Origin: Chiloscyllium plagiosum
Lineage: Eukaryota
NCBI RefSeq assembly: GCF_004010195.1
Contig: NC_057719.1
Location: forward strand, 41,301,129-41,338,922
Direction: 5' to 3'
DNA: 37,794 nucleotides
The notes under the pieces are model-generated. The model saw only the letters and a list, made by a program, of their open reading frames with translations. It ran no database searches and was not told the DNA's origin. A program made the translations under genes and the position numbers. Numbering within the stretch: the first letter of the stretch is position 1; the number at the start of each line of letters is the position of its first letter. Below, piece after piece: positions 1 through 33,410 of the stretch.

Positions 1-410
1 AAGAACTGGTGAGCCTAGTATCTCCGGTGGGTAAGTTGTTGGAGGGGATTCTAAGAACCAGGATCTACTTGTTTACATGCATTTGAAAAGGTAAGAGATG
101 AGTCTTTGTGCGTGGAAAATTATGTCTCGCAAACTTGATTGAGATTTTTGAACAGGAGACCAAGAAGATAAATGAAGGCAGAGCAGTTAATGGATTTTAG
201 CAAGGCCTTTGACAAGGTTCCACAAGGTTCACACGGTTAAACAAGCAAGCCAATTGGTTACAAAATTGATGGTAGGAGACAGAGGTAGTAGTAGAGGGTT
301 GTTGTTCAGGCTGGAGGCTGATGACAAGCGAGGTGTGGCAAGGATCAGTGCTGGGTCCACTGTTGTTCACCTTTTATATAAACAATTTGGATGGAAATGT
401 AGGATCTAGA

Positions 411-565
411 CCAACAGGTTTATTTGAAATCACAAGCTTTCAGGTCTGACAGAGGGGCAGCACTCTGAAAGCTTGTGATTTCAAATAAACCTGTTGGGCT
501 ATAACCCTGGTGGCGTGTGACTTTTGACCTTGTCCACCCCTGTCCAACACCTGCACCTCTACATC
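411..565 (+). mobile_element. Penelope-like element terminal fragment with 33-bp perfect inverted repeat and degraded hammerhead motif
   Basis: 411-443 is the exact reverse complement of 465-497; the spacer/arm reads ctgacagaggggcagcactctgaaagctt, resembling CUGANGA-helixII-GAAA; it interrupts CR1 RT coding sequence. Confidence 0.7.
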
Positions 566-890
566 GAGATTATAGGAGACATGGTGAGTTAGTTTGTGGA
601 TGACATCAAAATTGGTGCTCGTGCCGCTTGTAAGGAAAGTTATCTAAGAGTACAATGGGATCTTGATCAACTGGGCCTAGGAATAACAGATAGGATTTAA
701 TTCAGATATATGTGAGGTAATGCGTTTGGTAAGACAAATCAGGGCAGGACTTACACAGTTAATAGTAGGGCCCTGGGGAGTGTTGTTGAACAGAGAGACC
801 TGGGGTACAGGTACATAGTACCTTGAACATGGCATTGCAAGTGAACAAGGTGGTGAAAAAGGCATTTGGCATGCTTGCCTTCCTTGGTCG

Positions 891-1066
891 ACAGCTGAAA
901 AATGTGTTGCTGGAAAAGCACAGCAGGTCAGGCAGCATCAAAGGAGCAGGAGAATCGATGTTTCGAAACGTCGATTCTCCTGCTCCTTTGATGCTGCCTG
1001 ACCTGCTGCGCTTTTCCAGCAACACATTTTTCAGCTCTGATCTCCAGCATCTGCAGTCCTCACTTT
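891..1066 (+). mobile_element. Penelope-like element terminal fragment forming a 144-bp spacerless palindrome
   Basis: 893-964 and 965-1036 are inverted with 2 mismatches; TSD ttccttggtcg at 880-890 and 1067-1077; sequence related to the 28326-28526 insert. Confidence 0.85.
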
Positions 1067-1332
1067 TTCCTTGGTCGGCACACTGAGTACAGGAATTGGG
1101 ACATTGTGTTATAGCTGTAAACCAAATTTGTAAGGCCGCTTTTGAAGTACTGTGTACAGTTCTCATAGCCCTGCTGTAGGAAGGATGCTATTAAACTGGA
1201 AAGGGTGCAAAGAAGATTTACAAGAATGTTACCAAGATTGAAAGGTTTGAGGTATAAGGGGAGGCTGCAACTTTTCTCCTTGGAGCATTGGAGGCTGGAG
1301 GGTGGCTTTATAGACATTTATATAATTATGAG

Positions 1333-1477
1333 GGTCATGACATCATGACGTGTTTTTCTGCTGACATTTTGTCATCTCGCTAAGTAACATTGTCAGTGCA
1401 TCTCTGAGGAAGCTTTGGTGGTCTGTCCTGCCTGGTAGGAATTTACAACCTGAGCTACAAATCTTTTCAAAAAACTC
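1333..1477. mobile_element. Penelope-like element fragment (third family), partly inverted
   Basis: TSD ttatgag at 1326-1332 and 1478-1484; minus strand reads ctgacaatgttac..gacaaaatgtc (decayed hammerhead-like core); ends aacctgagctacaaatcttttcaaaaaactc. Confidence 0.6.
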
Positions 1478-3109
1478 TTATGAGAGGCACAGATAAGGTG
1501 AATAGCCATGGTCTTTTCCCCAGGGTAAGGATGTTCAAAACGAGAAGGCATAAGTTTAAGGTAGAGGAGAAATATTTAAAAGGGAACTGAGGGGCAACTG
1601 TTTTCACAAAGAGGGTGATGCATATAAGGAATGCGCTGCAGAGGAAGTGGTAAAGGCGTGTATAATTGCAGCATTTAGAAGTAATTTGAACAAGAATACG
1701 GATAGGAAAGGCTTAGAGGGATATGGGCCAAATGTAGAAAAATGGGCCTGGTTCAGTTTAGGAAACCTGGTTGTCATGGATGAGCTGGGCTGAAGAGCCT
1801 GTTTCCATGATGTATGATTCTATGATATCTCTTTCAATGATGGCACCTTCTTCTTGTTGATCTCAATGACTGCAGCTCCTCTCAGCACCCCTTCCTCTAC
1901 CCATGCTCAAAACACTCACTTTCTACCTTTTCCTTCTAGACCCTCTGCATAAGTATTGCATGAGGAGGCCCCATGATCACCTCTTGTTTTATCAGTAGCC
2001 ATTTGTAATTTACTCAATCCTCCTCTATTGCAGTAGAGAGCTCCCAATGGATTTAATCTTCCTTGTCATTGAAAAAGACAATTAGTGCTAAATCATTACA
2101 TTGGCATGCACGGACAATTTCAGCAACTTTGTCCAATAACAGCCACAGAAACTGTTTTTTATCGACAGTAACGTTTATAATGCCATTAGTGGTTTCACAG
2201 CCTCCAGAGAAGCTCACAGAAAGCATCTCCTCTGGCGGGCCTCATTTACTTCAACCTGATGCTGAGATGCAAGCAGTAATTTAAATGCCATATTAGCAGA
2301 CCACATTATAGAGTGACTTGATATATTTCTATGACCATCATTAAATCTCAGAACAACGATTCTTGCTTAAATGTAAATACTGGCTGCACTGGTCGTTTAA
2401 TTCCACTGAACTGTCCTGATGGTCTGAATACATTTACCTCAGAAGAGATTTTCTGTTTATGGCCACTATTTCATTCTGTTTTGTCCTTGAAAATTCTAAA
2501 ATCTGTTTTTGCTGTATTCTGCTTTTAGTCATCTTAATCTGACGTATTGATTCTCTGAGCTGAATTTTGATGTGGGGCATAGCGATTAGGAGTGGCGACT
2601 GTTTCTGGGTCCTGGGGACAATTTGACTGGGATACCCTGTCAATTGGCATTGAGATGGGTTCCCTACCCAATTAGAATGGCTGGTGGGCCCTTGAAGCTG
2701 AGAAGTATATTAGAGCCCTTTCAGCTTCAGAGGAATAATCAAGGAGAAGTAGCTCAGAGGGTAGTTCAACATGAATATTGCCTCAAATACATATAGAATA
2801 ATGAAGGCCACCATTTCTTCCCAGTGGCTGAGCTTTATCCAGAGTTGCAGTGTGGTTTTTGCTCATCATGAATTGCCACAGACAAGATCTTCACCCTCAC
2901 CCCCCTTTTTTTAACCCGAGATAAAAGCAAGGAGCAGCAGTAACTGTAGTTTATGACCTTCCTTGATCTCACTAAAGTTTTAGACTCTGAGAACCATATG
3001 AATGCTTTTGCGGTATGCCCCATAAATATATTGCCCTCAGAAACATTTCCCTAAACTCCAGCTACCACAAAAAGACACCCAAGCTGTGATCCTGACAAAC
3101 AAAATCACC

Positions 3110-6485: not shown

Positions 6486-6502
6486 GCCTGTGATGACATT
6501 AT

Positions 6503-8135
6503 GTAAGAAAGGTGGTAAGAAAAAGTCAGGGAACTGTAGACTGGTCGCCTGACGTTAGTGGTGGGAAAGTTGTTGGAAGAGATTCTGTGGGCTAGGATTT
6601 ACATGTATTTGGAAAGGCACGGGCTGATTAGAGATAGTCAACATGGCTTTGTGTGTGGGAAATTGTGTCTAATTAACTTGGTGGAGTTTTTTGAAGAAGT
6701 GAAGCAGGAGATTGAGGAAGGCAGATGTTGTTTATATAGACTTCAGCAAGGCATTCAACAAGGTTCTGCATAGTACACTGGTTGGCAAGGATCACATGGG
6801 ATACAGGGAGAGCTAGCCATTTGGATACAAAATTGGTTGAAGATAGGAGACAGAGGGTGATGGTGGAGGGTTGCTTTTCAGACTGGAGGCAGTGACAAGC
6901 AGTGTGCCACATGGATCAGTGTTGAATCCACTGCTTTTTGTTATTTATATATAGAACATAGAACAGTACAGCACAGAACAGGCCCTTCAGCCCACGATGT
7001 TGTGCTGACCACTGATCCTCATGTATGCACCCTCAAATTTGTGTGACCATATGCATGTCCAGTAGTCTCTTAAATGTCCCCAATGACCTTGCTTCCACAA
7101 CTGCTGCTGGCAATGCATTCCATGCTCTCACAACTGTCTGTGTAAAGAACCCACCTCTATAAATGATTTGAATATGAATATAGCAAGTATGGTTTATAAG
7201 TTTACAGATGACACCAAAATTAGAGGTACAATGGACAGTGAAGAAGGTTACCTCAGAGTACAATGGCACCCAAATCAGATGAGCAAATGTGCCGAGGAGT
7301 GGCAGAAGGTGTTTAATTTAGGTAAATGTGAGGTGCTGCATTTTGGTAAGGCAAATCAGGGCAAGACTTATATGCTTAATGAAAAAGACCAAGGCAGTGT
7401 TGCTGAACAAAGAGACCATGGGATACAGGTTCATAGTTCCTTGAAAGTGGAGTTGCAGGTCGATAGGGTAGTGAAGAAGACGTTTCGTACACTTGCATTT
7501 ATTAGTCAGTGCATTGAAAACAGGAATTGGGTTGTCATATTGTGGTTGTACAGGATATTGAATAGGCCATTTTTGGAATACTGCATGCAACTCTGGTGTC
7601 CTCGCTATAGGAAAGATATTGTGAAGCTTGAAAGGGTTCAGAAAAGATATACAAGGATGTTGCCAAGCTTGGAGGGTTTGAGCTATAGGGAGAGGCTGAA
7701 TAGGCTGGGACTATTTTCCTTGGAGCACCGAAGGATGAGGTATGACCTTATAGAGGTTTATAAAATCATGAGAGACATGGATAGGGTGAATAATCAAGAT
7801 CTTCTCCCCAGGGTGAGGGAGTCCAAAACTAGAGGATATTGGTTTAAAGTGGGAGGGGAAAGATTTAAACGGGTCCTAACGGGCAACGGTTTCATGCAGA
7901 AGGTGATGCACATATAGAATAAGCTGCCAGAAGAAGTGGTGGAGGCTGGTTCAGTAACAACATTTAAAAGGCATTTGGATGGTATATGAATAGGAAGGGT
8001 TTGGAGGGTTATGGGCCAAATGCTGGCAAGTGGGACTTAAATCATGTAGAATATCTGGTCGGCACGAACAAGTTGGACCGAAGGGATGTTCCTGTGCTGT
8101 ACACCTGTATGACTCTATGACTTTATGACTCTAAG
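6503..8135 (+). mobile_element. 5'-truncated CR1-clade LINE (ORF2 RT to 3' tail)
   Basis: ORFs 6558-6773 (DSQHGFV.GK.CL.NL.EFFEEV) and 7168-7917 (KFTDDTK, KCEVLHFG, LERVQKRYTRMLP); (tatgactc)n tail at 8108-8133. Confidence 0.95.
6951..7157 (-). mobile_element. CR1/HER1 3'-end fragment nested antisense within CR1
   Basis: Minus strand encodes GFFTQTVVRAWNALPAAVVEARSLGTFKRLLD and ends in a (ttctatg)n tail; host CR1 resumes at ~7158. Confidence 0.85.
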
Positions 8136-12420: not shown

Positions 12421-12522
12421 AAGGAAAGAACTTGTATATATTATTGTTCACATCGTTGCATTTTAGCCAAGTAATTGAACTTAGATTGTAAGTGCAACTG
12501 CAAATTGTAATTACTTTCCAAC
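12421..12522 (-). mobile_element. 3' part of a SacSINE1-like SINE interrupted by the ERV
   Basis: aaggaaagaacttgtatatat..tttagccaag..ttgtaagtg..ttgtaat follows the reverse-complement SINE 3' end and continues after the provirus at 19697. Confidence 0.5.
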
Positions 12523-13222
12523 TGAAGTGGGAGATGGCATGGGGCAGGGTGACACTAGGCATACGGACACACACGTTGGCCACTGAACCATAAGGTGGCA
12601 CTTGACACACAAGATGACCACTGGACTACAATATGGAGTAAATACACATATTGCCTGGGGCCACCAGAATGCCAGCAAAATGCAATCACAACCTAGTTGA
12701 TTAGTTTAAGGTGGGTGGGGGAGAGAATACACATGAGTTACGTACACGGCCCGCCAAAGTGTCTGGATCCAGCCAACACCTTTGATAGAAATGCTAACAG
12801 TTTGATACAAACTCAATGCAAAGTGCTGTAGTAATCGTCCTTCTCAGGAAAAGTGATTAGCGCCCATTACAACAGCAGTGGACGTCCACGCAGACATTGA
12901 AACTGACAATGTCTGTGCTGAAACTGACAGCGACTGCACTGAAATTAACAAAGGCTGCGCTGGAACTGACAATGACTGCATTGAAACTATCAACGATTCT
13001 GCAATGTTTACAACAAACAAGCAATGTTCCAGAGACAATAACCTTATCACTGACTTATTATATCGCAAAGTGCCTTGACATGTGCGGGGGGTTGAGAGGA
13101 GACTTGCAGCTGGCCACTGTGCTGTTGGTGTCTTTCTCTCCCCAGAGCTCCAGTCCTTGTACAATAAACTTTGCTTTTGTACCCTGACTCTGACTCCGAG
13201 TCTGGTGATTTTCCCTACAACA
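12523..13222 (+). repeat. 5' LTR (700 bp)
   Basis: tgaagtgggag...ctacaaca; colinear with 18973-19692 (15 substitutions plus 1 gap in the first 100 aligned columns); AATAAA at 13163-13168; TATA box deleted relative to the 3' LTR. Confidence 0.95.
12899..13003 (+). repeat. Five degenerate 21-bp tandem repeats in U3 (consensus ~gaaactgacaatgactgcact)
   Basis: Units start at 12899, 12920, 12941, 12962 and 12983; the same array is at 19376-19480. Confidence 0.9.
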
Positions 13223-13224
13223 AT

Positions 13225-13242
13225 TGGCACTGCGAGCAGGGT
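13225..13242 (+). promoter_or_regulatory. Primer-binding site, tRNA-Ser-like
   Basis: TGGCACTGCGAGCAGGGT, 2 nt after the 5' LTR; 16/18 match to the complement of the vertebrate tRNA-Ser(TGA) 3' end as recalled (TGGCGCAGCGAGCAGGGT). Confidence 0.8.
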
Positions 13243-14204
13243 TCTTATTATTGGTGCCCTGTTCGAAGGCCACGATCAGGGGACCAGGGTAAGAACAAAT
13301 TTGTACCTGCAAACGGGAAGAGTCAGACCAGGCCAAGGACACAGTTTAAAAGGTATACCGATTGTAATGTCTGATTTGCTACAGTACTGAGTTAAAAAAA
13401 AGATTTTAAGTTCATGTCTGTGGAGAATAAGTGTTTAACTGTATTAACTGTTGTAAGAACCAGCTGTTTGTGCTGAAACAGCCAGAGGACAGGGTAGTGC
13501 CTGTCTCAAAAGCCCTGCCCTAAACCAGTTGTTAAGAGGGTAGCCCCCACCACGTGAAGGTTGGGATTTGAAGTGGGAATTGAGGTGCCAAGGGCACTGG
13601 GAGCTGTGAAGCACAAGTGGCAAAGTCGGATAACATTGGACTGTGTAGGAGCGAACAATGCAGAGTCCAGTTAGAGTTGAAGTTAAAGGTTGGGTGCTGT
13701 CTGTACTTGTAACTTCCAGTGTGGTGAGGAATTGGAGCTGATCACTCTGACCAAGAGCCAAACCTCAGTGGAGCGCACATAACCAAGGTGGGGAGCATGG
13801 ACACTGTGAGTAACCGTGATACCCTGTCAGTCCGTAGTAGAACGGTGGAACTTGAATAGTGGCGGTGGCCGGGAAGGTAAAGAGTCCCACCGGTAGAGAG
13901 CGCAGTGTGCTAGAGGTAGGTTTCTGGGCCTATTGGGGGGCATTGGGTCAGCAGAGGTGTAGAGGAGTCCTGGTAGAGAGCACACCCTATTGAGCCAGCA
14001 TCCCCAACCGACTGATAGGTAGCAACTAGTAGTGGTGGTCGGGAGGGTAGGGAGGTCCCACTAGTAGAGAGCACACCTTGCTAGGAAGCTGCCATGGCCA
14101 TACAGATTGTGCTGGGACAGTATTATTGGCCAGGGGGTAGAGAAGTCCCCACTGGTTAGGAACACGTTACTGTTGGTAGTATCCGTGGGTACACAATCTG
14201 CTAA

Positions 14205-15505
14205 ATGGCAGATCGAAGTTCTAAGGGGGATACTGCAGGTTCCCTTATTGAGAAATACAAGGCAGACAGACAAGGGCTGACAGAACAAATGAAGAAGAGT
14301 GGTTGGGACCCATCCCAGACATTAGCACAACAGAGACAGTGGATAGATAAGCAGAAATGGAATAAAATAAAAAGCTAGGGGTAATGTTAGTACACCAATT
14401 AGCAGGCCTAATTGAACAAGTAGCAGGTGGAGAGAAGACCAAGAACAAATTGAGGAGCTGGAGGATAGGATAAAGGAGCTAGAACACAGATTATGAAAAG
14501 TACAGAAGGAAAGGGAGATTGACTCTCTCCCCTCCTATGAAACCCTCCAGCAGGGATCAATTGCTCCCTCTGTTGGATGAACCGTGCAGGAGTATAACTT
14601 AGAGCCCATTACCAGACAAGGAACAGACTCACAGCCCAAAGCGAATTATAAATCCTTCACCCCAGGGGAGAGGCACCAAATTATGGCCTTCCTGGAGAAA
14701 TTGCAGCCCCGGAGTGCGAACACTCTGGGAAGAGTTGGATACTGTATGGGAAGGGCACCAACTGAGGGACATACATCAGTTGGTCCAGGCAGCTTGCCCA
14801 GTGAACAAGTAGAGACAGATAGATGGGGGACCTGATGTCACAGCAACCTGAGACTTTAGGGGAGGACGGTGGTCGCATGCCGTTGCCCTTACAGCAGTGA
14901 TAAAAGACCAGCAGGTCCCCTTCGCCAATTTTAAAGAGGAAATCCAGAGAGTGCTAGGAAATGCTCCCATGAACTGGAGCAAGATCACGAACACTGAGCA
15001 ACTTAAAGGGGAAAGAGCCTCTGAATATGGGAAATGATTATTTAGAGCCTATCAAGAATGCTCAGGGCAAGCAAACCCAGATAGGGTGGACCATTCGGGG
15101 GCATTCATCCAAGCTTTTAAAGATGGGCTCTCTTGCACCCACCAAGCCATCCTGAAAAGGGGAGTAATAATGTCCCAGTATTATGATGACCTAGTCGAGT
15201 GGGCTAGCAGGATGCAGGATGCAGAAGCTCCTGCGACAATGACAAGACCTGACAAAGCAGCCTACCCAAATGGAGAAAAGAATAGAATGAAACGATCCTG
15301 CCACAACTGTGGCCGATAGGGACACTTTGCTAGAGAGTGTAGGGTCCCACTAGCAGGAAATAGACCAGGGGACAATGTAAAATACTGCAGCCGCTGCAAA
15401 AGGACAGGACACACAGAAGCAGTGAGCTGGGAAAAGCATGGGGCACCCCCAAACACTACCCGGAACACCGCGGAACTGCGGGAGTCCCGAGATCAGCAGA
15501 GCTGA
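14205..15505 (+). pseudogene. gag: Retroviral gag, disrupted by frameshifts and stops
   Basis: ATG 14205 (MADRSSKG..); coiled-coil EQIEELEDRIKELEHRL; LPSY late-domain-like motif; capsid-like Q.KGE.ASEY...LF and AFIQAFKDGL; knuckles CHNCGR*GHFAREC and CSRCKRTGHTEAVS. Confidence 0.9.
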
Positions 15506-15860
15506 CAACCAGCTGCACCCATATGTGAGGATAAGGGAGAGGGGAGAATTTACAAGCTCACAGTAATAGGAGGGAGGAAATGTGAAATGCTAGTAGACAC
15601 AGGAGGGGCTGTATCCATCACAAATTTACCATTATCCCACACAAGTAAAATGATTCACTTAACTGGGGTAGGAGGGGACAAAACATCAGCTTGCCTAGGC
15701 GAAACTACCCTCGTAGAAATAAACTATATATATGTAATATCCCCATTAAATTCTATGTAAGCCAAAATAACGAGGGTACTATAATGGGCAATGGTCTCAT
15801 GAGAGAATATAATGTTCTAATCGATTGTGCAAAAGGGAAATTGATTTGGCCCAGACAGGA
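15506..15860 (+). pseudogene. pro: Retroviral aspartic protease
   Basis: MLVDTGGAVS (DTG at 15596-15604), flap LTGVGG, and TIMGNGLMREYNVLID after a frameshift; same frame as the end of gag. Confidence 0.92.
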
Positions 15861-15984
15861 TGGTCAGAAGACTGAGATTGGAAAACTTACAAGTCAACTT
15901 GAAACTATTAAAGTGGCTACTGTCACCAGTAGAGACTGGAACCTCGAAAAGGGGGGTTCGGAGCCATCTGTGCCTCCATTCCCA

Positions 15985-17191
15985 GAGCCTGGGCAGAAAC
16001 AAAGTTAGATACAGGTCTAGTTAACATAGGCCCAATAAGGGTTCCCAGGCCGGAGCATAAGCCCCACCAGCAATACCTAATAAAACCCGAAGCAGAACAA
16101 GCAGTTGTGAAGATAGTGCAAGGACTAGCGAAACAGGGAATCCTGAAAGAAACTGCAAGTACGTCTAATTCCCCAATGTGGCCAGTAATAAAGCTTGACA
16201 GGAGTCACAGGCTCACCATTGATTATACGGGACTAAATAAGGTCACCCCCAAATTGCATCCCATTGTAACAGACCCCTCCACCATTTTAAACAGCTTGGC
16301 CCCTGAGCACAAGAGGTTTACTGTTTTAGACATAGCCAACAGGTTCTTGTCTATCCCGTTACATCCTGAGTCCCAGAACAAATTCACTTTTACAGTAAGG
16401 AACAGGCAGTACACATGGACTCGCCTGCCACAAGGGTTCCACAACAGCCCCACTACTTTTCACAGGGAGATGAGAGACATCCTAAACAGAATAGATTTAC
16501 CAGAGGGCAGCACTGCCCTCCAAATGTAAGTAATATCCTAATTGCCTCAGAGTCAGGACACCAGGAAGCTTTATGCCTAGTATTATAGGAACTGGCAACT
16601 GCAGAGTTAAAAGTTTGCCCCACAAAGGCACAGATTGGCATAACCCCAAATTTATACCTTACCTTACAGGGACAGGGACTCAAAGAAATGCCCAATGCCT
16701 TCAAGAAGGCAATCCAACAGATGCCATGACCTGCCACTGTCAGGGGGTCAGAAAGGTCATGGGGCTATTCAACTACAGTTGGAGCTTTATACCTGAGTTC
16801 ACAAAATTGGCTGAACTGATCCAGAGATTAATTAAAGGAGGCAAGCCCACCTTGGAACCTGTAACCTGGGGGCCAGAACAGGAGGAGGCATTCAGTCAGC
16901 TTAAAACTCAGCTCATATTGACCCCCGGGTTAGGGTTTCCAGATCCAGGCAAGGATTTTCACATCCACTGTAATAATGAGGGATGATTTTAGTCTGCAGT
17001 GGTCACCCAAAGACCACGTTAACAGGAGAAGGCGTGTAGGGTACTACTCAACCACAGAAGGGCCAGTAGTCACCGGGTTGCCCAGGTGTATAGCAATCTT
17101 AGACTGTGCTGCTTGGGCCGTTAGGGTTAGTGAGCCCATAGTAATGACAGGGACTGTCATCCTCTGCCCTAAACACACCCTAGTCGAGATG
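15985..17191 (+). pseudogene. pol: Retroviral reverse transcriptase plus connection/tether domain
   Basis: WAETKLDTGLV..QQY.IKPEA, SNSPMWPVIK, RLTIDYTGLNKVTP, FTVLDIAN.F.SIPL, YTWTRLPQGFHNSP; YxDD decayed at ~16521-16537; VMGLFNY..FIPEF, W..EQEEAF..LK..L...P.LG.PD, VGYYS, LPRC. Confidence 0.95.
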
Positions 17192-17416
17192 CATATGATG
17201 TGGTAATAAGTGGGAACACCTGCGCCTGCCTATTTTAAAGGAAAAGGTGCATGGAAGCAGCAGACCCAACTCAAACTGTTTAAAGACTCCTGTGACCAAA
17301 CTAATGTCATTGACCATTCCCCAAGTGCAGACAGGAACAGCGGACAAGATGGTCATCCCGGGGGGAGTACCGAAAACACAACAGAACAAACCACACAAAA
17401 GCACGACTACATCTGA
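17192..17416 (+). pseudogene. pol: Integrase C-terminal remnant (GPY/F-like module)
   Basis: (P)YDVVISGNTCAC, then after a frameshift FKGKGAWKQQTQLKLF, fits GPYxV....A......W.H...LK; no HHCC or DDE core is present upstream. Confidence 0.75.
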
Positions 17417-18916
17417 CAAAAACAAAGACTCTGACTGATAACTTTATTTTAACTGCAAACTGTATATATCTGTATGTGTTTCACTGTGTTTAAATGTCAC
17501 GACTGTCGGGAGCATGTCAAGATTTGAAGATAGCTTCTTCAGTAAAACCCACCTAAGCTTACATGCGAACCGAACTGTCTGCTACCCACTGGTGTGATCA
17601 GTGGAATCACTATTTGTGGCTATCCCGGTGTGGCCCCTCGCGACCCGTATACAGTAGACACCTTGGGAGTGCCGTGTAAGGGGCAGATTGGGAAATACAA
17701 ACAGGGACTCCAGGGCAGATGTGTGCAGCTGGGCAGGACCACCGGCCAATGGGGCTGCGTCCCCCAGCCTAGGGAAGGGAAACCCATTTAAAACCCAGTA
17801 ATTACCCATTCTGTTTCACAGGGCAGGGATGGGCATGTGTTTATACCCTGGTTCCCAAAAACGACTCATGCATCCAGACACAGTACACTTATCAGCGCTG
17901 TACAGTCACTAGGGGATGGTTTACCTGCACCTGCAGCGAGCAGGCATGCTTGAATGTCACTGCGGGCAGACAGTTCATATGTGATCAGTGCAATGGCACC
18001 CATGTCAGCTGTGCCACATGGACATACCCGTTCAATACTTACCAGCTGGTGAGGGGATGGCACCTTGGGGATTGGGGCAACATGCGTACACAGACAAACA
18101 GAAGAACAGAACAATGTATGTTACTGAGCGGCGAAGGGATTTTTTCTATTTGATGAGACTTATGCGACAGACACCCCAGACCTCCCAAACCTGTTCGTGG
18201 TAGGGACAATTGCAACCCTTACTGTACCATACCCCGGGGGGGCATATTTGGAGAAGGATAGTGACCGGCGCCATCAGTCAGGAGTTCTGTGCTGACTGGC
18301 AGGTCCCCACCACTTTGGGGTCATCATTGGGATATGGATTCTTGGGATCGCTATCTTTGGGGGGGGGTGCACAGCAGAAGTCTTCAGCGCTCAAAACCGA
18401 AATTACCTTGTATGTGGCCTGACTATCTGAGGCAATAATACTTCAAAAGCTCTGGAAGAAATTAATACAGAGTTGGCTGAACTCAGACTCTACATACAGC
18501 AGACATGTTACGCGGTGGATTATCAATTAGCAAAGCAAGGAGGAGTTTGTACAATTATTGGTGACAATTATATTACCCATGTTATTGATGCCTCTTATAA
18601 CATTACAGAAGCCATCAAGAATATTCGAGACCAGCTCGACAATTTTCGAAAGGGAGCCATAATTACAGACAACTGGCTAAATTGGTTGCTAGGTAAATCT
18701 TGGGGACCCTATTTGGCACATGAGATAATTCTCCTCATTGCACTCCTGCTGGTACTCTGTGTGGGCCTCGGGTGTTTAAAGCTCTGCTGTAAGGTGCTAC
18801 TGATGAGAACTATACCAGCAGCGAGTGTCACCACAGAAGGGCCCCCAACAAAATTGGCACTCCATGATACCCCTCGGGAAGAGGAGCTCCGAGAGATGAT
18901 CTGCCTCTACATGTGA
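17349..18916 (+). pseudogene. env: Retroviral env with filovirus-GP2-like TM subunit, disrupted
   Basis: Hydrophobic signal-like LYISVCVSLCLNV; Cys- and sequon-rich SU; basic site WRRIV(TG)AIS; C..fusion loop..C; ISD-like ELRLYIQQTCYAVDYQLAKQGGVC; Trp-rich membrane-proximal region; TM helix IILLIALLLVLCVGLGCL; stop at 18914-18916. Confidence 0.92.
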
Positions 18917-18961
18917 ATTGGGTGGTCTGCGGGAGATTTCCGAAGTTGTCTCCTTGACCAC

Positions 18962-18972
18962 AAAGGGGGGAG
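18962..18972 (+). promoter_or_regulatory. Polypurine tract
   Basis: aaaggggggag directly before the TG of the 3' LTR. Confidence 0.92.
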
Positions 18973-19692
18973 TGAAGTGGGAGATGGCACAGGTCAGGGT
19001 GACACAAGGCACATGGACACACAAGATGGCTGCTGAGCCATAAGCTGGCCACTTGACACATAAGATGGCTACCGGATCATAATATGGAGAGAGACAGCAG
19101 AGCAAATGTAGATACTGCCTGGGGCCACCAGAATGCCAGCACAATGCACTCACAACCTGGCGGATTAGTTTAAGATGGGTGGGGGAGAGAATACTCATGA
19201 GTAGCATATACTGCCTGCCAAAGTGTCTGGGTCCAGCCAACACCTTTTATAGAAATGCTAACAGTTTGATATGGACTCAGTACAGAGTGCTAATAGCCAG
19301 GGTTGCAGTAATCATCCTTTTCAGGAAAAGCGCTTAGCGCCCATTACCACAGCAATGGACTTCCGCGCAGACATCGAAACTCACAATGTCTGCACTGAAA
19401 CTGACAATGACCGCACTGAAATTAATAAAGACTGCGCTGGAACTGATAATGATTGCATCAAAACTATCGACAATTCTGCAACGTTTACAACAAACAAACT
19501 ATGTTCCAGAGAATAACCTCATCACTGACCTATTATATCACAAAATGTATAAAAGTATCTTGACATGTGCTCTGAGTGGAGAGAAGAATCGCAACTGACA
19601 ACTTGGTATCTTTCTCTCCCCAGAGTTCCAGTATTCCCTTTTACAATAAACTCTATTGTTGAACCCCGAAGCTGGTGATTTTCCTTGCAACA
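18973..19692 (+). repeat. 3' LTR (720 bp)
   Basis: tgaagtgggag...ttgcaaca followed by TSD caac; TATAAAA at 19548-19554; AATAAA at 19645-19650; two YY1-like AAGATGGC motifs near 19023 and 19062. Confidence 0.95.
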
Positions 19693-19696
19693 CAAC

Positions 19697-20460: not shown

Positions 20461-20874
20461 TCGGCCTGGACAATCACACAGGCCAACCTCCCATCTACCA
20501 AGCCCTGTGTCAAGAAAAGGCTGCCAGCATTCTCAAAGATCCAACCCACCCTGACAATTTCTACCATCGGGGAGAAGGTACAGAAGCCTGAACACGCGCA
20601 CCAGCAGGTTTCGTAACTGCTTCTATCCTACTGTTGATAAAATATTGTTTGGACTCAAACTCTTAACATTCGCCTGTACCTGTGTTTTGGATTTTGCCAC
20701 TGTTTACTTATTATTTACTTATCTATGCTACTTAACTATGTGAGCTGCCTGTATTGCTCGCAAGACAAAGCTTTTCACTGTGCCTCGGTACACATGACAA
20801 TGAATTCAAATCAATTCAATTCAGTTCAATTCAATTCAATTCAGTTCAATTCAATTCAATTCAATTCAATTCAA
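20461..20874 (+). mobile_element. Rex1/Babar-like LINE 3' end with (CAATT)n tail
   Basis: KAASILKDPTHP..SGRRYRSL..RTSRF.N.FYP motif; pentanucleotide tail at 20803-20874. Confidence 0.75.
20803..20874. repeat. (AATTC)n microsatellite
   Basis: Directly visible tandem pentamers with occasional AGTTC units. Confidence 0.95.
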
Positions 20875-23044
20875 GTGTTCATAAAGTTGTCAAAAGTTTT
20901 AATACTAAGGGCTGGAAGAATTATAACATGCAGCAGAGGAAGACATTGATAAGGAAATAGAGAATAGAATATGGATGCAACCTAGCAAGAAACTTAAAAA
21001 TGAGTTCTTAAAACCTTGTCATGTATTAGAGAAAGAAATGATTAACAATTAAAATGTGAGTTATTTACAGAAAGAGACGTAAGTCCATAACAGAAAATAT
21101 AGAAATGCAGAGAACCAAAATAGTCATTTTGTGTCTACCTTCACAGAGGCAAACCCAAGAAGTCCCCCTGGTATAATTAAGATCCAGGGTTATTGGCAGC
21201 ATAAAACTGAAAGAAATTAGTCCTTGTAACAAAGTAATATTAGAGAATAAATGATACTGAAAGCTGATTCATCTAGCGTGTTGAAAGAGATGTTTATTGA
21301 GCCAACAGATCCACTGGTGATCATCTTTCAAAATTCTATTAACTCTGCAATGATGCCTGCAGTTTGGGGTTTACAAATGTAACCCTACTGTTTCAGAGAA
21401 GATAGAGAGAGAAAACAGAGAACTACAGATCTATTAGCCTGACGTCAGTAGTAGGGGAAGTTACAGAAGCAATTTTAAAGGATGTGATTACATTACATGT
21501 AGAAAAAAATTGCCTGACTGGGAGGAGTCAACATAGATTTATGAAAGATAATCATGTTGACAAACCAGCCAGAGTTTTTTGAGGGTGTCACTTGGAGAAT
21601 GACATGGAGTGTAGTATATTTAGATTTTCAGAAAATTTTTTAAAAATCCAGTGCAGGTTACTCAACAAAGTTAAAACTCATGGGATTGGGATAATATATT
21701 AGCATAGATTCTGGATTGGTTAATGGGCAGAAAATAGAGGGTAGGAACAAATCTGTCATTCTCAGGTTGGCAAGCTGTGACCAGTGGCATACCACAAGGA
21801 TCAGTGCCAGGGCCTCAACTTTTCACAATCTATCTTAATTATTTGAAGATGGAGGCCTTTGTAAAAGTTCCAAGTTTGCAAATGACACTAAACTTGGTGG
21901 GATCGCGAATTGCATAGAAGATGTGAAGAGGTTCAAGGGAACTTAAATAGCACAGTAATGGCAGGAGCATGGCAGATGGACCACAATGTTGATAAATGTG
22001 ACATTATCAGTTTTGTAGGAGGAATGAAGTTGCAAAGCATTTCTTAAATGGCAAGAAGGGTATTGATATCCAAAGGGACATAGGTGTCCTTGTGCATAAG
22101 TCACTGAAAACTGGAATACACATGTAACAGTAATTTGGAAGGAAAGTGGAGTGTTAGCTTTTATCACAAAATAACTTGAAAGCTGGAGCAAAGACGTCTT
22201 GGCACAATTGTATAGAACATTAGTGAGACTGTGCCTGGAGTATTTTGTGCACTTTCGATCCCTTGTCTAATGACAGATATACTTGCCATGGCAGGATTAC
22301 AGCAAAGGTTCAACAGACTGAATCCTGCAATGCTGGGATTGTCCTATGATGAGAGATTCAGGAGACCAGACCTGTATTCTCTGGAGTTGAGAAGATTGAG
22401 AGATGATCTCATATAAACTTATAGAATTCTTAAAGGGATAGACAAGATGGATGCAGAAAGAATACTTCTCCTGGCTGTCGGGTATAGAACTGTGGGACAT
22501 AGAATAAAGGACAACTCATATAGGGCTGAGATGAGGAGAAACCTCTTTATTCAGAGGGTGGTGAATCTTTGGATATTTCTATCCCAGAGTGCTGTGGAGG
22601 CTCAGTCATTAAGTAATATCAAGGGAGAAATTGATAGATTTCTCATCACTAATAACACCAACGTGTATGGGGATAGCATGATAATATGAGGGAGATGGTC
22701 AGCCATCATCACGAATGGCAGAACAGAGAAGATGAGCAAAACGGCCAATTCCTGCTCCGATCTTCTTATTTTTGGATACCTGAAATATTTTTGTTCTAGT
22801 TTTACTGTGATCTCCTTCTTCGTTTCTGCTTGTAGATTGATGGCTGTACTGGTTTTCCTGTTCTCAACATGAAGTCGAAAATTTTATCACCTCTGGTTTA
22901 ATTTCCAACCTTTCCACACCTTCAAATTATCCATCTCTAATTCTTACATTTCTCCAGCTTTTGGTCTCCATTCCTGCAGTTTGACAATCAATGAGTATTT
23001 ATCACTGACTTCCAATGCTACATCGATTATAATGTCTGATATCT

Positions 23045-27475: not shown

Positions 27476-28345
27476 ATTTGGGTGGAAATAAGAAAGCGAT
27501 GATCACCTTATTGGGAATATATTATGGACTCCATAATAGTCAGCGGAAAATTGTAAAACAAATTTGTAAGGAGATTTCAGTTATCAGTAAGAAAAATAGG
27601 ACAGTTATGGTAGGGAATTTTAACTTTCCAAACATAGACTGGGACTGCCATAGTGTTAAGGGCTTAGATGGAGAGGAATTTGTTAAATGTGTACAAGAAA
27701 ATTTTCTGATTAAGTATTTGGATTTTCCTACAAGAAAAGGTGCAAAACTTGACCTATTGTTGGGAAATAAGGCAGGGCAGGTGACTGAGGTGTCAGTGGG
27801 GGAGCACTTTGGGGCCAGCGACCATAATTCTATTAGTTTTAAAATAGTGATGGAAAAGGATAGACTAGATCTAAAAGTTGAAGTTCTAAATTGGAGAAAG
27901 GCTAATTTTGACGGTTAGGCAAGAACTTTCAAAAGCTGATTGGGGGTAGATGTTCTCAGTTAAAGGGATGGCTGGAAAATGGGAAGCCTTCAGAAATGAC
28001 ATAACAAGAATCCAGAGAAAGTATATTCCTGATAGGGTAAAAGGAAAGGCTGGTAGGTGTAGGGAAAGCTGGATGACTAAAGAAATTGAGGTTTTGGTCA
28101 AGAAAAAGAAGGAAGCATATGTCAGGTATAGACAGGATAGATCGAGTGAATCCTTAGCATAATGTAAAGGCAGTAGGAGTATACTTAAGAGGGAAATCAG
28201 GAAGGCAAAAAGGGGACATGAGATAGCTTTGGCAGATAGAGTTAAGGAGAATCCAAAGGGATTTTACAAATGCATTTAGGACAAAAGAGTAACTAGAGAG
28301 AGAGAATAGGGCCCCTCAAAGATCAGGCAGCATCTGAGGAGGAAG

Positions 28346-28384
28346 AAAATCGACGTTTCGGGCAAAAGCCCTTCATCAGGAATA
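28346..28384 (-). ncRNA. Minimal type I hammerhead ribozyme motif (intact core)
   Basis: Minus strand: auuc-CUGAUGA-aGGGC-uuuu-GCCC-GAAAC-GUC-gauu. Confidence 0.75.
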
Positions 28385-28393
28385 CTCTGCCTA

Positions 28394-28432
28394 TATTCCT
28401 GATGAAGGGCTTTTGCCCGAAATGTTGATTTT
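28394..28432 (+). ncRNA. Minimal hammerhead ribozyme motif (CpG-decayed copy)
   Basis: attc-CTGATGA-aGGGC-tttt-GCCC-GAAAT-GTT-gatt; two C>T changes relative to the minus-strand copy. Confidence 0.6.
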
Positions 28433-31400
28433 CTTGCTCCTCGAATGCTGCCTGAACTGCTGTGCTTTGCCAGCACCACTCCACTCCAGAATCTGGTTTC
28501 CAGCATCTGCAGTCATTATTTTTACCCCCCTCAAAGATCATCAAGGCAGCCTACATGTGGAGCCAGTGTTTACTGTGGAGAAGATATCTAATGTGGGAAA
28601 ATAGATGGTGACATCTTGAAAAATGTCCATATTACAGAGGAGAAGGGCTGGATGTCTTGAAATGCATAACAGTGGATAAATCCCCAGGACCTGATCAGGT
28701 GTACCCTAGAACTCTGTGGGAAGCTAGGGAAATGATTGCCCCTTGCTGAGATATTTGTATCATTGATAGTCACGGGTGAGGTGCAGGAAGACTGGAGGTT
28801 GGCTAACATGATGCCGGTATTTAAGAAAGGTGGTAAGGAGAAGCTAGGGAACTATAAACCGGTGAGCCTGACATTCATTGTGGACAAGTTGTTGGAGGGA
28901 ATCCTGAGGGAGAGGATTTACATGTATTTGGAAAGGCAAGAACTGATTAGAGATAGTCAGCATGGCTTTGTGCGTGGGAAATCATGTCTCACGAACTTGA
29001 TTGAGTTTTTTGAAGAAGTGACAAAGAGGATTGATGAGGACAGAGCAGTAGACATGATCTATGTGGACTCCAGTAAGGCCTTCAACAAGGTTCCTCATGG
29101 GAGACTGGTTAGCAAGGTTAGATCTCAAGGAATACAGAAAGAACTAGCAATTTGGATAGAGAACTGGCTCAAAGGTAGAAGACAGAGGATGGTAGTGGAG
29201 GGTTGTTTTTCAGACTGGAGGCCTGTGACCAGTGGAGTGCCACAAGGATCGGTGCTGGGTCCTCTACTTTTTATCATTTACATAAATGATTTGGATGCGA
29301 GCATAAGAGGTGCAGTTAATAAGTTTGCAGATGACACCAAAATTGTCTAGTGGACAGTGAAGAGGGTTACCTCAGATTACAACAAGATCTTGACCAGGTA
29401 GGCCAATGGGCTGAGAAGTGGCAGATGGAGTTTAATTCAGATAAATGCAAGGTGCTACATTTTGGGAAAGCAAATCTTTGCAGGACTTATACACTTAATG
29501 GTAAGGTCTGAGGGAGTGTTGCTGAACAAAGACACCTTGGAGTGCAGGTTCATAGCTCCTGTTGCCAGGGTTGGAAGACTTGAGCTATAGGGAGAGGCTG
29601 AACAGGCTGGGGCTGCTGTGCCTGGAGTGTCGGAGGCTGAAGGGTGACTTTATCGAGGATAACAAAATTATAAGGGGCATGGATAGGATAAATAGACAAA
29701 GTGTTTTCCCTGGGGTCAGGGAGTCCAGAACTAGAGGGCATAGATTTAGGGTGAGAGGGGAAAGTTCTAAAAGAGACCTAAGGGGCAACTTTTTCACACA
29801 GAGGATGGTATGTGTATGGAATGAGCTGCCAGAGGAAGTGGTGGAGGCTGGTACAATTGCAACATTTAAGAGCCATTTGGATGGGTATATGAATAGGAAG
29901 GGTTTGGAGGGATATATGCCGGGTGCTGGCAGGTGGGATTAGATTGGGTTGGGATATATGGTCGGCATGGATGGGTTAGACCGAAGGGTCTGTTTCCATG
30001 TTATACATCTCTATGACTCTATATTGTAAAAAATAGCAGCTGATCATGGTGAGCTGTGAGAAAGCAGAAAATGCATCCTTTCAGAACCAGAAGCATATAT
30101 AATTGCATAATCTGTTCTGAGCACCTACTATTCTACATAATTTTGCATCCTTTAATAACTGTGAATGTTTGTAATAAAAGAAAGATCATGTTTACACCAC
30201 TAATAAATGCCACTATTAGTCATTGACTCTGTGGAACAATAACAAAACTATTTAAATAGAGAGTTTTTTTATTTAAATAGTTTTGTATACTGTACTTTTT
30301 TTTACTGAGAGGAAATAGACAAATGTCTACTTAATAGAAAAGATGTTTACTGGGGATGCACATAAATTATGGTGAGTTGAATATTTGGCACACAACAAAA
30401 AAGATATGATGTTTATATTTCAGGTAGCAGATAGCATGATTTGATATAAATCACTTTTAGAAGAAAGCAGTTTATAAAAGTATTTTATAATTTCAATCTT
30501 GCAAAACATTGTGTTAGCAATAAAAATATTTGCATCCTTATTGAACTGATCATTCAATTCAATTCTTCAAAAACTAATTTCATAGCCAATTTCTAGATGA
30601 TCAGATAAGCTTTCAATTGTCTTAATTTGGCTTTACATAAATTTATATTTTTTGAACAAACGCCGTTCCTGAAAATCATACCACTGCAACCAATTGATTC
30701 TTTGACATAAAACTGTTCCTTTTCCCTTTTTAGTTGACTGACTCCTAAAATGGGGCAGTTTCAGTTGTCTGGAGTTTCAAAAGCTTTATAAAAGCATTTT
30801 GTACCCTAGCCATGCATGGATATTGCCATCTCTCGTAAAAGTGATTTCAGTTCCCTCAGGTAATAAACAATCTCTCGATCCATAATGTGTTTCTTGATTG
30901 ACAAGTGACATAAAGCTCGTTTCAGCTGCTAAAAGGAGGTGAAAGGAACAAAAGCATCAAAAAGCTTGCAGGATATTGAGTTTTCCTGTCTGCCTCATTT
31001 ACACTACACACTGTCTTGTCTGAACAAGACAGAATCTTAATTTCACAAGAAATGCATTGAGGGCCCAACTGTGAAAAAAAAGTACTATGGAAAGTTTATA
31101 GTACATAAATAGAGTTGTAATCCCTTTAGAAAAATTATATTTAAATACCGTCTTGATCTCATCCAAGGTAAGTGGCTTGCATTTCTTTGGTACAGATGGA
31201 TGTAAGAATAAATCTTGTGATTAAGCTTTTATATTCCCTGTGAAACATAAAGACCAATCACTGGAATGTGGGAGACAATGGGTTAGATGCTCTTCCAGTA
31301 GATCCATCATTTAATTTGGAGCATTTTACTTGGAAATAGTCATCACTATCAAATAACCTGATCTACCTCTTATATCAACAGATTTGTGACCATTAAGATA

Positions 31401-33110: not shown

Positions 33111-33410
33111 CGTTTTTCAGACTAGAGGCCGGTGACCAATAATATTTCTTAGGGTGCTGGATCCACTGTTGGTTGTGATTTAAATAAATGATTTGGATGA
33201 GAATTTAGGTTGCATGGTTAGTAAGCTTGTGGGTGACACTAAAAATCATACATAACAGTGAAGAAGGTAATTTAAGATTACAAAGAAATCTTGATCAATT
33301 GGGCCAATGGGCTGAGGAGCGGCAGATAGAGACTAATTCTGATAAATGCAAGGTATTGCACTTTAATAAAACAAACAAGGGCATGACTTATGCATTTAAT
33401 GTTGGAATGT
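33111..33410 (+). mobile_element. CR1 RT fragment
   Basis: VLDPLL..INDLDE, LRLQRNLDQLGQWAEE, DKCKVLHF. Confidence 0.85.

What the first reader, a model, noticed from the sequence alone, without database searches (positions are those of the whole stretch)
12523..19692. Mosaic, possibly unclassified shark retrovirus lineage
Seen together in one provirus: tRNA-Ser-like PBS, 4-bp TSD, ~960-nt leader, Gag lacking a Gly2 myristoylation signal at the ATG I infer, a coiled-coil and two CCHC-type knuckles, gag and pro in one frame, RT with SNSPMWPV/LDIAN/YTWTRLPQGFHNSP, and a filovirus-like env. Knowledge: gammaretroviruses have one knuckle and spumaviruses none; snakehead retrovirus has a coiled-coil Gag but an Arg PBS. 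Inference: the RT looks closer to class III/snakehead-like fish retroviruses, so the combination does not match a named genus and may reflect env capture.
Basis: partly seen in the sequence, partly recalled or inferred. Interest (0 to 1): 0.7.

Follow-up and report, generated by a model that had tools for sequence, protein, structure and literature searches.

The report
Dead shark provirus, filovirus-like envelope
This is a dead, partly deleted retrovirus in a probable shark genome, from an unnamed deep lineage likely already sampled by earlier surveys, whose envelope fusion protein resembles filovirus GP2 more than any retrovirus I could compare and was likely gained by an envelope swap.

Summary
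The provirus is real: LTRs 12523-13222 and 18973-19692 (85% identical), CAAC duplication, tRNA-Ser primer site, 962-nt leader and in-frame gag-TGA-pro. All genes are broken, the RT catalytic motif is gone, and a deletion at 17192 removes RNase H and most of integrase. It belongs to a multi-copy family, and the 3' junction is shared by three species labels. RT forms its own clade (100/99) with shark proteins, outside gamma/epsilon, class II, foamy, ERV-L and the snakehead clade; its deep position is unresolved. The env TM scores 40-53 bits against filovirus GP2 and at most 29 against the retroviral TMs I held. In trees it joins the alpha/filovirus group firmly but is sister to filoviruses only weakly (80/69), and no fish or shark envs were in the tree. 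Look-alike Pols (whale shark, turtles) are in Xu et al. 2018. Class III pol with gamma-type env is published (XtERV-S, which also has a Ser primer site; ERV-SA.a-Ppe). Verdict: an unnamed variant of a known mosaic type; the filovirus link deserves a properly sampled test.

The parts
12519..12522 (+). left target-site duplication CAAC
12523..13222 (+). 5' LTR, 700 bp, TG...CA, AATAAA at 13163, 21-nt tandem repeats at 12895-12999
13225..13242 (+). primer-binding site, tRNA-Ser(UGA)-like, 16 of 18 to human Ser-TGA-1-1; 2 nt after the LTR
13243..14204 (+). 962-nt leader with imperfect 80-91-nt repeats
14205..15505 (+). gag, broken by stops and frameshifts; no Gly2; coiled-coil-like 14434-14517; knuckles 15299-15340 and 15386-15427 (both damaged); ends at in-frame TGA 15503
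   Evidence: tblastn to P0004 Gag, E 1e-21
15506..15950 (+). protease, DTG at 15596-15604, in frame with the end of gag, frameshifted further on
15951..17192 (+). reverse transcriptase and most of the tether; open 15933-16529, catalytic motif destroyed, several frameshifts
17192..17193 (+). deletion junction: end of tether, RNase H and integrase core absent (about 580 codons against P0161)
17193..17420 (+). remnant of the integrase C-terminus (weak match, E 0.3; assigned by position; end approximate)
17440..18277 (+). Cys-rich env surface part in broken frames; start approximate; no convincing homologue
18278..18916 (+). env TM: degenerate cleavage site, hydrophobic stretch between Cys residues 41 apart, HR1 with N-glycan sequon, ISD-like stretch, only the first Cys of CX6CC, membrane span; two internal stops
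18962..18972 (+). polypurine tract
18973..19692 (+). 3' LTR, 720 bp
19693..19696 (+). right target-site duplication CAAC

Best explanation
This is a dead, internally deleted provirus of a multi-copy family in a probable shark, likely from an unnamed deep retroviral lineage (clade Huo / class III grade) that likely gained a gamma-type envelope of the alpha/filovirus kind by recombination. Shown: LTRs, 4-bp duplication, Ser-type PBS, PPT, gene order, decay, the deletion, an RT clade of its own, and TM similarity to filovirus GP2. Inferred for the ancestral virus: priming by tRNA-Ser; Gag-Pol made by read-through of the in-frame UGA; Gag targeted to membranes without myristoylation; RNA packaging by two zinc knuckles; a spliced env whose TM uses an internal Cys-bounded fusion loop, as in alpharetroviruses and filoviruses. 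This copy cannot make working RT, integrase or Env.
For: Structure and decay. Family: contigs of three species labels lie over the whole element at tens to hundreds of times the depth of the unique flanks (not a copy number), most 90-95% alike, and one contig in each of X2, X10 and X11 bridges the 3' LTR-flank junction. All three runs show loose ends at 17192, so other copies carry sequence that this one lacks. RT tree (61 rows, 232 columns): window plus 7 proteins form a clade at 100/99, outside class I+II (99/96), foamy (100/100), the ERV-L-like group (97/89) and the SnRV group (94/95); intact relatives stay apart on RT+tether. TM: best PDB hits are filovirus glycoproteins (E 4e-11) ahead of syncytin-2 (3e-6). 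All 10 of 10 filovirus GP2 pieces score 40-53 bits, the best retroviral ORF 29, among 806 ORFs of 75 loci. TM falls in an alpha + filovirus + L012 group at 100/99 under two models, and grouping with mammalian gamma/D-type TMs is rejected (p-AU 0.0006). SnRV Env gives no hit at E up to 10. Precedent for class III pol with gamma-type env: PMC8278194 and bioRxiv 10.1101/2021.11.23.469661.
Against: The deep place of RT is unresolved: AU tests reject none of shark+SnRV (0.23), +class I (0.09), +SnRV+ERV-L (0.17) or +gar/eel group (0.41). The relatives' RNase H is sister to class I RNase H (93/95), so 'class III' fits only loosely. No env of a close Pol relative was obtained, so capture, rather than long co-descent of this pol and env, is not shown. 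Assignment of the Xu et al. sequences to this lineage is by eye, and their clade is read from tip order in the figure text. Host identity is inferred.
Confidence: 0.72

Rival explanations
1. It is simply another copy of an already catalogued cartilaginous-fish family (ERV-SA-type of Chen et al., or a Repbase/Dfam shark ERV), so nothing is new but the locus.
For: Chen et al. found gamma-type-env ERVs in 6 cartilaginous fish, class III SnRV-related Pols among all their elements, and 46 orthologous groups in Chiloscyllium. The family is abundant. PMC12813294 lists hundreds of chondrichthyan env ORFs.
Against: The texts I read do not describe this PBS/Gag/TM set for a shark element, nor a filovirus-nearest TM. 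Their sequence supplements were not visible, so this is weak.
Confidence: 0.4
2. The env is an old, vertically inherited part of a lineage that branches just outside class I/II, so pol and gamma-type env co-descend and no capture is needed.
For: RT sits next to foamy + class I/II + gar/eel (89/98); RNase H is sister to class I (93/95); gamma-type env is widespread in class I (PMC9967133).
Against: The RT support is below the 95 bootstrap mark and collapses to a polytomy on RT+tether; integrase of the relatives lies nearest the turtle/frog class III-like proteins (82/88, weak); Pol/Env incongruence is frequent in anamniote ERVs.
Confidence: 0.2
3. The env was taken from a filovirus-like RNA virus (an RNA-virus gene captured by a retrovirus).
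For: GP2 is the best match by score and the sister group in both TM trees (80/69, 81/64).
Against: Identity is only 25-32%; the TM lies outside all 10 filoviruses (100/97); alternatives are not rejected (p-AU 0.17-0.28); the surface part shows no GP1 match; long branches meet at this node.
Confidence: 0.05

Closest known systems
rh_ty_ERV4 (whale shark), ch_my_ERV12, ch_pi_ERV20, ma_te_ERV13 (turtles) of Xu et al. 2018, PMC6001957, apparently clade Huo
   Same: Pol segments printed in S2 Data share the RT and tether signatures of the window and its relatives, by eye; they stand in one block of tips between the SnRV group and the foamy-like tips.
   Different: In the parts read they are tree tips and consensus entries only; no PBS, Gag or env description was seen. 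Not aligned or placed in my trees.
XtERV-S of Xenopus tropicalis (PMC8278194)
   Same: tRNA-Ser PBS, about 700-bp LTRs, no myristoylation signal, gag and pol in frame with TGA, class III-type pol, gamma-type TM with stutter glycan and internal fusion peptide.
   Different: XtERV-S has no Cys-His box, YIDD, a dUTPase, a 158-nt leader, ERV-L-like RT, and no Cys pair around the fusion peptide. Here: two knuckles, YVDD in relatives, no room for a dUTPase, 962-nt leader, Cys-bounded hydrophobic stretch, separate RT clade.
ERV-SA.a-Ppe and class III SnRV-related ERVs with gamma-type Env (Chen et al., bioRxiv 10.1101/2021.11.23.469661)
   Same: Class III Pol with gamma-type Env in an anamniote; that Ppe is a sawfish is my recollection.
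   Different: Sequences not visible (bioRxiv supplements closed; journal version not held), so identity or difference is untested.
Snakehead retrovirus (L001, 10,688 nt, the length given in PMC12193657)
   Same: In-frame gag stop before pro; coiled-coil-like Gag; best Gag match of relative P0004 among reference ORFs (33 bits, nearly all from the knuckle region).
   Different: RT not in the SnRV clade in the best trees; SnRV has one knuckle, a TAG stop, about 150 extra residues between RNase H and integrase, and a 1134-codon env frame with no match to this TM.
Filovirus GP2 and alpharetrovirus TM (gamma-type fusogens with internal fusion loop)
   Same: Cys-bounded hydrophobic stretch, HR1 sequon, ISD-like region; 25-32% identity to GP2, 19-22% to alpha TM.
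   Different: No GP1 similarity found; CX6CC decayed in this copy; sits in an ordinary proviral env position.

Membership tests
Integrated retroviral provirus (ERV) | Paired TG...CA LTRs, target duplication, PBS, PPT, gag-pro-pol-env order | tested here: met
Clade Huo / class III grade (Xu et al. 2018) | RT outside class I, class II and foamy viruses | tested here: met
   (99/96 and 100/100 exclude it); grouping with class I not formally rejected, p-AU 0.09
Clade Huo / class III grade (Xu et al. 2018) | RT monophyletic with SnRV and ERV-L | tested here: inconclusive
   not in the best tree; p-AU 0.17; look-alike Pols stand in the Huo block of the published tree by tip order
Snakehead retrovirus lineage | RT inside the SnRV clade | tested here: inconclusive
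   outside; p-AU 0.23
Snakehead retrovirus lineage | SnRV-type env | tested here: not met
   no phmmer hit of the TM to any L001 ORF at E up to 10
   window PBS matches tRNA-Ser; SnRV's own PBS was not checked
XtERV-S / ERV-L | tRNA-Ser PBS and in-frame TGA (XtERV-S) | tested here: met
XtERV-S / ERV-L | ERV-L-type RT (YIDD), dUTPase after integrase, no Cys-His box | tested here: not met
   relatives have YVDD; P0161 ends about 25 residues after its last integrase motif; two knuckles; separate RT clade. XtERV-S itself was not in my tree
Gamma- and Epsilonretrovirus (class I) | RT inside class I | tested here: not met
   RNase H of relatives is sister to, not inside, class I
Lokiretroviruses | Env similar to paramyxo/pneumovirus F protein | tested here: not met
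   TM matches TLV_coat and GP2, no F-protein hit; definition from PMC7947760
Lokiretroviruses | RT sister to all other retroviruses | tested here: inconclusive
   no sequence labelled loki was available for the tree
Gamma-type Env | ISD and HR1 with stutter glycan site | tested here: met
Gamma-type Env | CX6CC motif | tested here: inconclusive
   only the first Cys remains in this decayed copy
Endogenous filovirus element | Nested within Filoviridae, GP1 homology | tested here: not met
   outside filoviruses 100/97; no GP1 hit
Dfam/Repbase shark ERV families | DNA match to a curated family | not testable with these tools
   no such library; no host genome

The most novel reading that the evidence does not exclude
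This shark lineage is a distinct, nameable deep branch of retroviruses (RT of its own, class I-like RNase H, class III-like integrase) whose env TM is the closest retroviral relative of filovirus GP2, pointing to a cartilaginous-fish or other aquatic retrovirus as the donor of the filovirus fusion protein.
Probability: 0.18. Interest if true: 0.72.

Novelty: new variant of a known kind. Interest (0 to 1): 0.38.

Why it matters
The reviews I read name alpharetrovirus TM as the homologue of filovirus GP2 and leave the donor open. A shark ERV family whose TM scores about twice as high against GP2 as against alpha TM gives a concrete candidate to test with dense sampling. The lineage also bears on how the loose 'class III / Huo' grade should be split, since RT, RNase H and integrase of its intact relatives point to different neighbours. 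The locus itself is an inert fossil with no sign of host use.

Tried and rejected
No host genome, so no copy census or host tRNA match. Protein searches for env relatives among longer proteins found none: 0 of 1739 candidates at 1e-5 and 0 of 1079 at 1e-3; this is weak evidence. No search of the protein atlas was obtained for env. DNA loci of intact relatives were not found (one search gave one 26%-identical unrelated RT, not used). Surface-part pieces against PDB gave only CD276 (two domains, each i-E about 1.5) and other weak hits, rejected as chance. LTR-borne open frames matched no reference ORF. No tRNA gene or Rfam match. Expression: no RNA holder listed; the one RNA run laid (2% read) gave sparse, mostly under-95% reads at the LTRs, not assignable to this locus. 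Dating: K2P 0.17 gives about 39 My at 2.2e-9 and about 390 My at 2.2e-10 per site per year, the two rates quoted in PMC4422223, so no date is claimed. Literature searches for 'endogenous retrovirus, shark, snakehead, filovirus' found 0 papers with all four terms; related searches listed no paper on this family, within an open-licence library only. Supplement searches for RT or TM motifs in PMC10435555 (13 of 14 files) and PMC12813294 (coordinates tables, cells cut) were blank and are not evidence of absence. Henzy 2017 and the journal version of Chen 2022 are not held. No structure was predicted: a single broken sequence would give a poor model.
Full report
Observation. The element spans 12523-19692. 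Its LTRs are 700 and 720 bp, begin TG, end CA, and are 85.1% identical over 679 columns (K2P 0.17). CAAC flanks both ends. [quoted passage not shown] An 11-base purine tract precedes the 3' LTR. The ATG at 14205 is 962 nt after the primer site and has no Gly2. The last Gag frame, with two knuckles, runs into the protease frame across one TGA at 15503. Pfam finds RT, the tether and TLV_coat, the last two just under their curated cut-offs (3 of 10 pieces hit).

Every gene is broken. Knuckle 1 holds a stop, knuckle 2 lacks its last Cys, the RT catalytic motif is destroyed, and the TM keeps only the first Cys of CX6CC. Against the intact relative P0161, residues 530-1110 have no counterpart: RNase H and the integrase core are deleted at 17192. 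Contigs from all three DNA runs laid show loose ends and a depth trough there, so other copies hold sequence that this one lacks.

Family and host. No host genome is held. Twenty runs under three species labels hold part of the stretch. In one DNA-type run of each label, contigs cover the whole element far deeper than the unique flanks, most at 90-95% identity, and one contig per run bridges the 3' LTR-flank junction. So this is a multi-copy family, and this insertion likely predates the split of those species. The nearest named proteins are from Mustelus asterias (74% RT identity) and Heterodontus francisci, hence a probable shark.

RT. I took 150 representatives and 6 further hits, made a first tree of 138 of them plus the window (16 short ones dropped), and named 30. 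References came from the viral collection: L001 is taken as snakehead retrovirus because its 10,688 nt equal the length in PMC12193657 (passages). Foamy, lenti, beta, alpha, delta and gamma labels of other loci are mine, from primer type, length and RT motifs. The main tree had 61 rows: 42 chosen proteins, 18 of 65 loci and the window's open RT frame. The window and 7 proteins form a clade at 100/99, outside class I+II (99/96), foamy, the ERV-L-like group (97/89) and the SnRV group (94/95), and next to foamy + class I/II + a gar/eel group at 89/98. AU tests reject none of four alternative homes (p 0.23, 0.09, 0.17, 0.41), and RT+tether leaves a polytomy. With intact relatives as stand-ins, RNase H is sister to class I (93/95) and integrase lies nearest turtle and frog class III-like proteins (82/88). 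The lineage is distinct; its deep place is open.

Env. The TM has a hydrophobic stretch between two Cys 41 residues apart, an HR1 sequon, an ISD-like stretch and a membrane span. Among 177,635 solved-structure sequences the best matches are filovirus glycoproteins (E 4e-11), ahead of syncytin-2 (3e-6). Among 806 ORFs of 75 loci, 10 of 10 GP2 pieces score 40-53 bits; the best retroviral env scores 29 (L012; its label as a frog ERV is recalled), alpha TMs 20-25, and SnRV Env does not hit. In 31-row trees the TM joins alpha + filovirus + L012 at 100/99 and is sister to filoviruses at 80/69 and 81/64. Grouping with mammalian gamma/D-type TMs is rejected (p 0.0006), but four rearrangements inside the group are not (p 0.17-0.28), and long branches meet there. 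No fish or shark env was available, which is the main gap. The surface part matched nothing convincing.

How it worked. Inferred from anatomy and general retrovirology: tRNA-Ser priming, UGA read-through to make Gag-Pol, non-myristoyl membrane targeting, two-knuckle packaging, 4-bp staggered integration, and a spliced env with an internal fusion loop as in alpharetroviruses and filoviruses (PMC9967133 and bioRxiv 10.1101/2023.10.07.561363, passages). Env acquisition by recombination is likely by analogy, not shown. An earlier scan note (e1-8152740) reports a probable shark ERV with an F-type env; if its Pol is of this clade the swap would be direct, but I could not test that.

Comparison with what is known. 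Xu et al. 2018 (PMC6001957; section 7, passages, S2 Fig text and parts of S2 Data read) include rh_ty_ERV4 and three turtle ERVs whose Pols look like this lineage by eye, standing in the clade Huo block by tip order. XtERV-S (PMC8278194; first two parts and passages read) already combines a Ser primer site, no myristoylation, in-frame TGA, class III pol and a stutter-type gamma TM, but lacks knuckles and has a dUTPase. Chen et al. (bioRxiv 10.1101/2021.11.23.469661; parts 1-4 of 6 read, supplements closed) report class III Pol with gamma-type Env and frequent Pol/Env incongruence; their unseen data may hold this family. Han 2015 (PMC4422223, part 1 of 2) found SnRV-related ERVs in elephant shark. 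Lokiretroviruses (PMC7947760, parts 1-2 of 4) have an F-type env, which this lacks. Two recent env surveys of chondrichthyans do not mention filoviruses in their main text (bioRxiv 10.64898/2026.05.06.723177, parts 1-2 and passages; PMC12813294, passages). bioRxiv 10.1101/2021.11.05.467493 and PMC10435555 were seen as passages only.

Verdict. A real but inert provirus of an unnamed lineage that earlier Pol surveys have probably sampled, with a pol/env combination of a published kind. What remains of interest is the unusually GP2-like TM and the domain-level mosaic in pol; both need better sampling. Interest 0.38; new variant of a known kind.

Noticed in passing
window 12895-12999 and the matching part of the 3' LTR: Tandem 21-nt repeats in U3; sense frames stay open across them in both LTRs. 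No match to reference ORFs; probably enhancer repeats, though a remnant accessory ORF is not excluded.
   Followed up: partly
window 13875-14170: Three to four imperfect repeats at 80-91-nt spacing account for part of the long leader.
   Followed up: no
window 17495-17510: A CxxC near the probable start of the env surface part, in a broken frame; XtERV-S has its CWIC near the SU N-terminus.
   Followed up: no
window 893-1036 and 28320-28458: Two near-perfect palindromes (72- and 65-nt arms) sharing sequence, inside repeat-rich DNA; possibly a MITE or head-to-head repeat.
   Followed up: no
window 1-1800, 6500-8100, 28850-30000, 33150-33400: Dispersed 70-80% identical repeats that look like LINE fragments (label recalled).
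   Followed up: no
window 20793-20877: (AATTC)n microsatellite beside a very high-copy repeat.
   Followed up: no
proteins P0158, P0161, P0002 (intact relatives): RNase H groups next to class I while integrase groups with class III-like turtle and frog proteins: a possible domain mosaic inside pol.
   Followed up: partly
L001 pol (P0111), between RNase H and integrase: Snakehead retrovirus Pol carries about 150 extra residues with two H-x-S/T-like motifs, recalling a 2H phosphoesterase (label recalled, untested).
   Followed up: no
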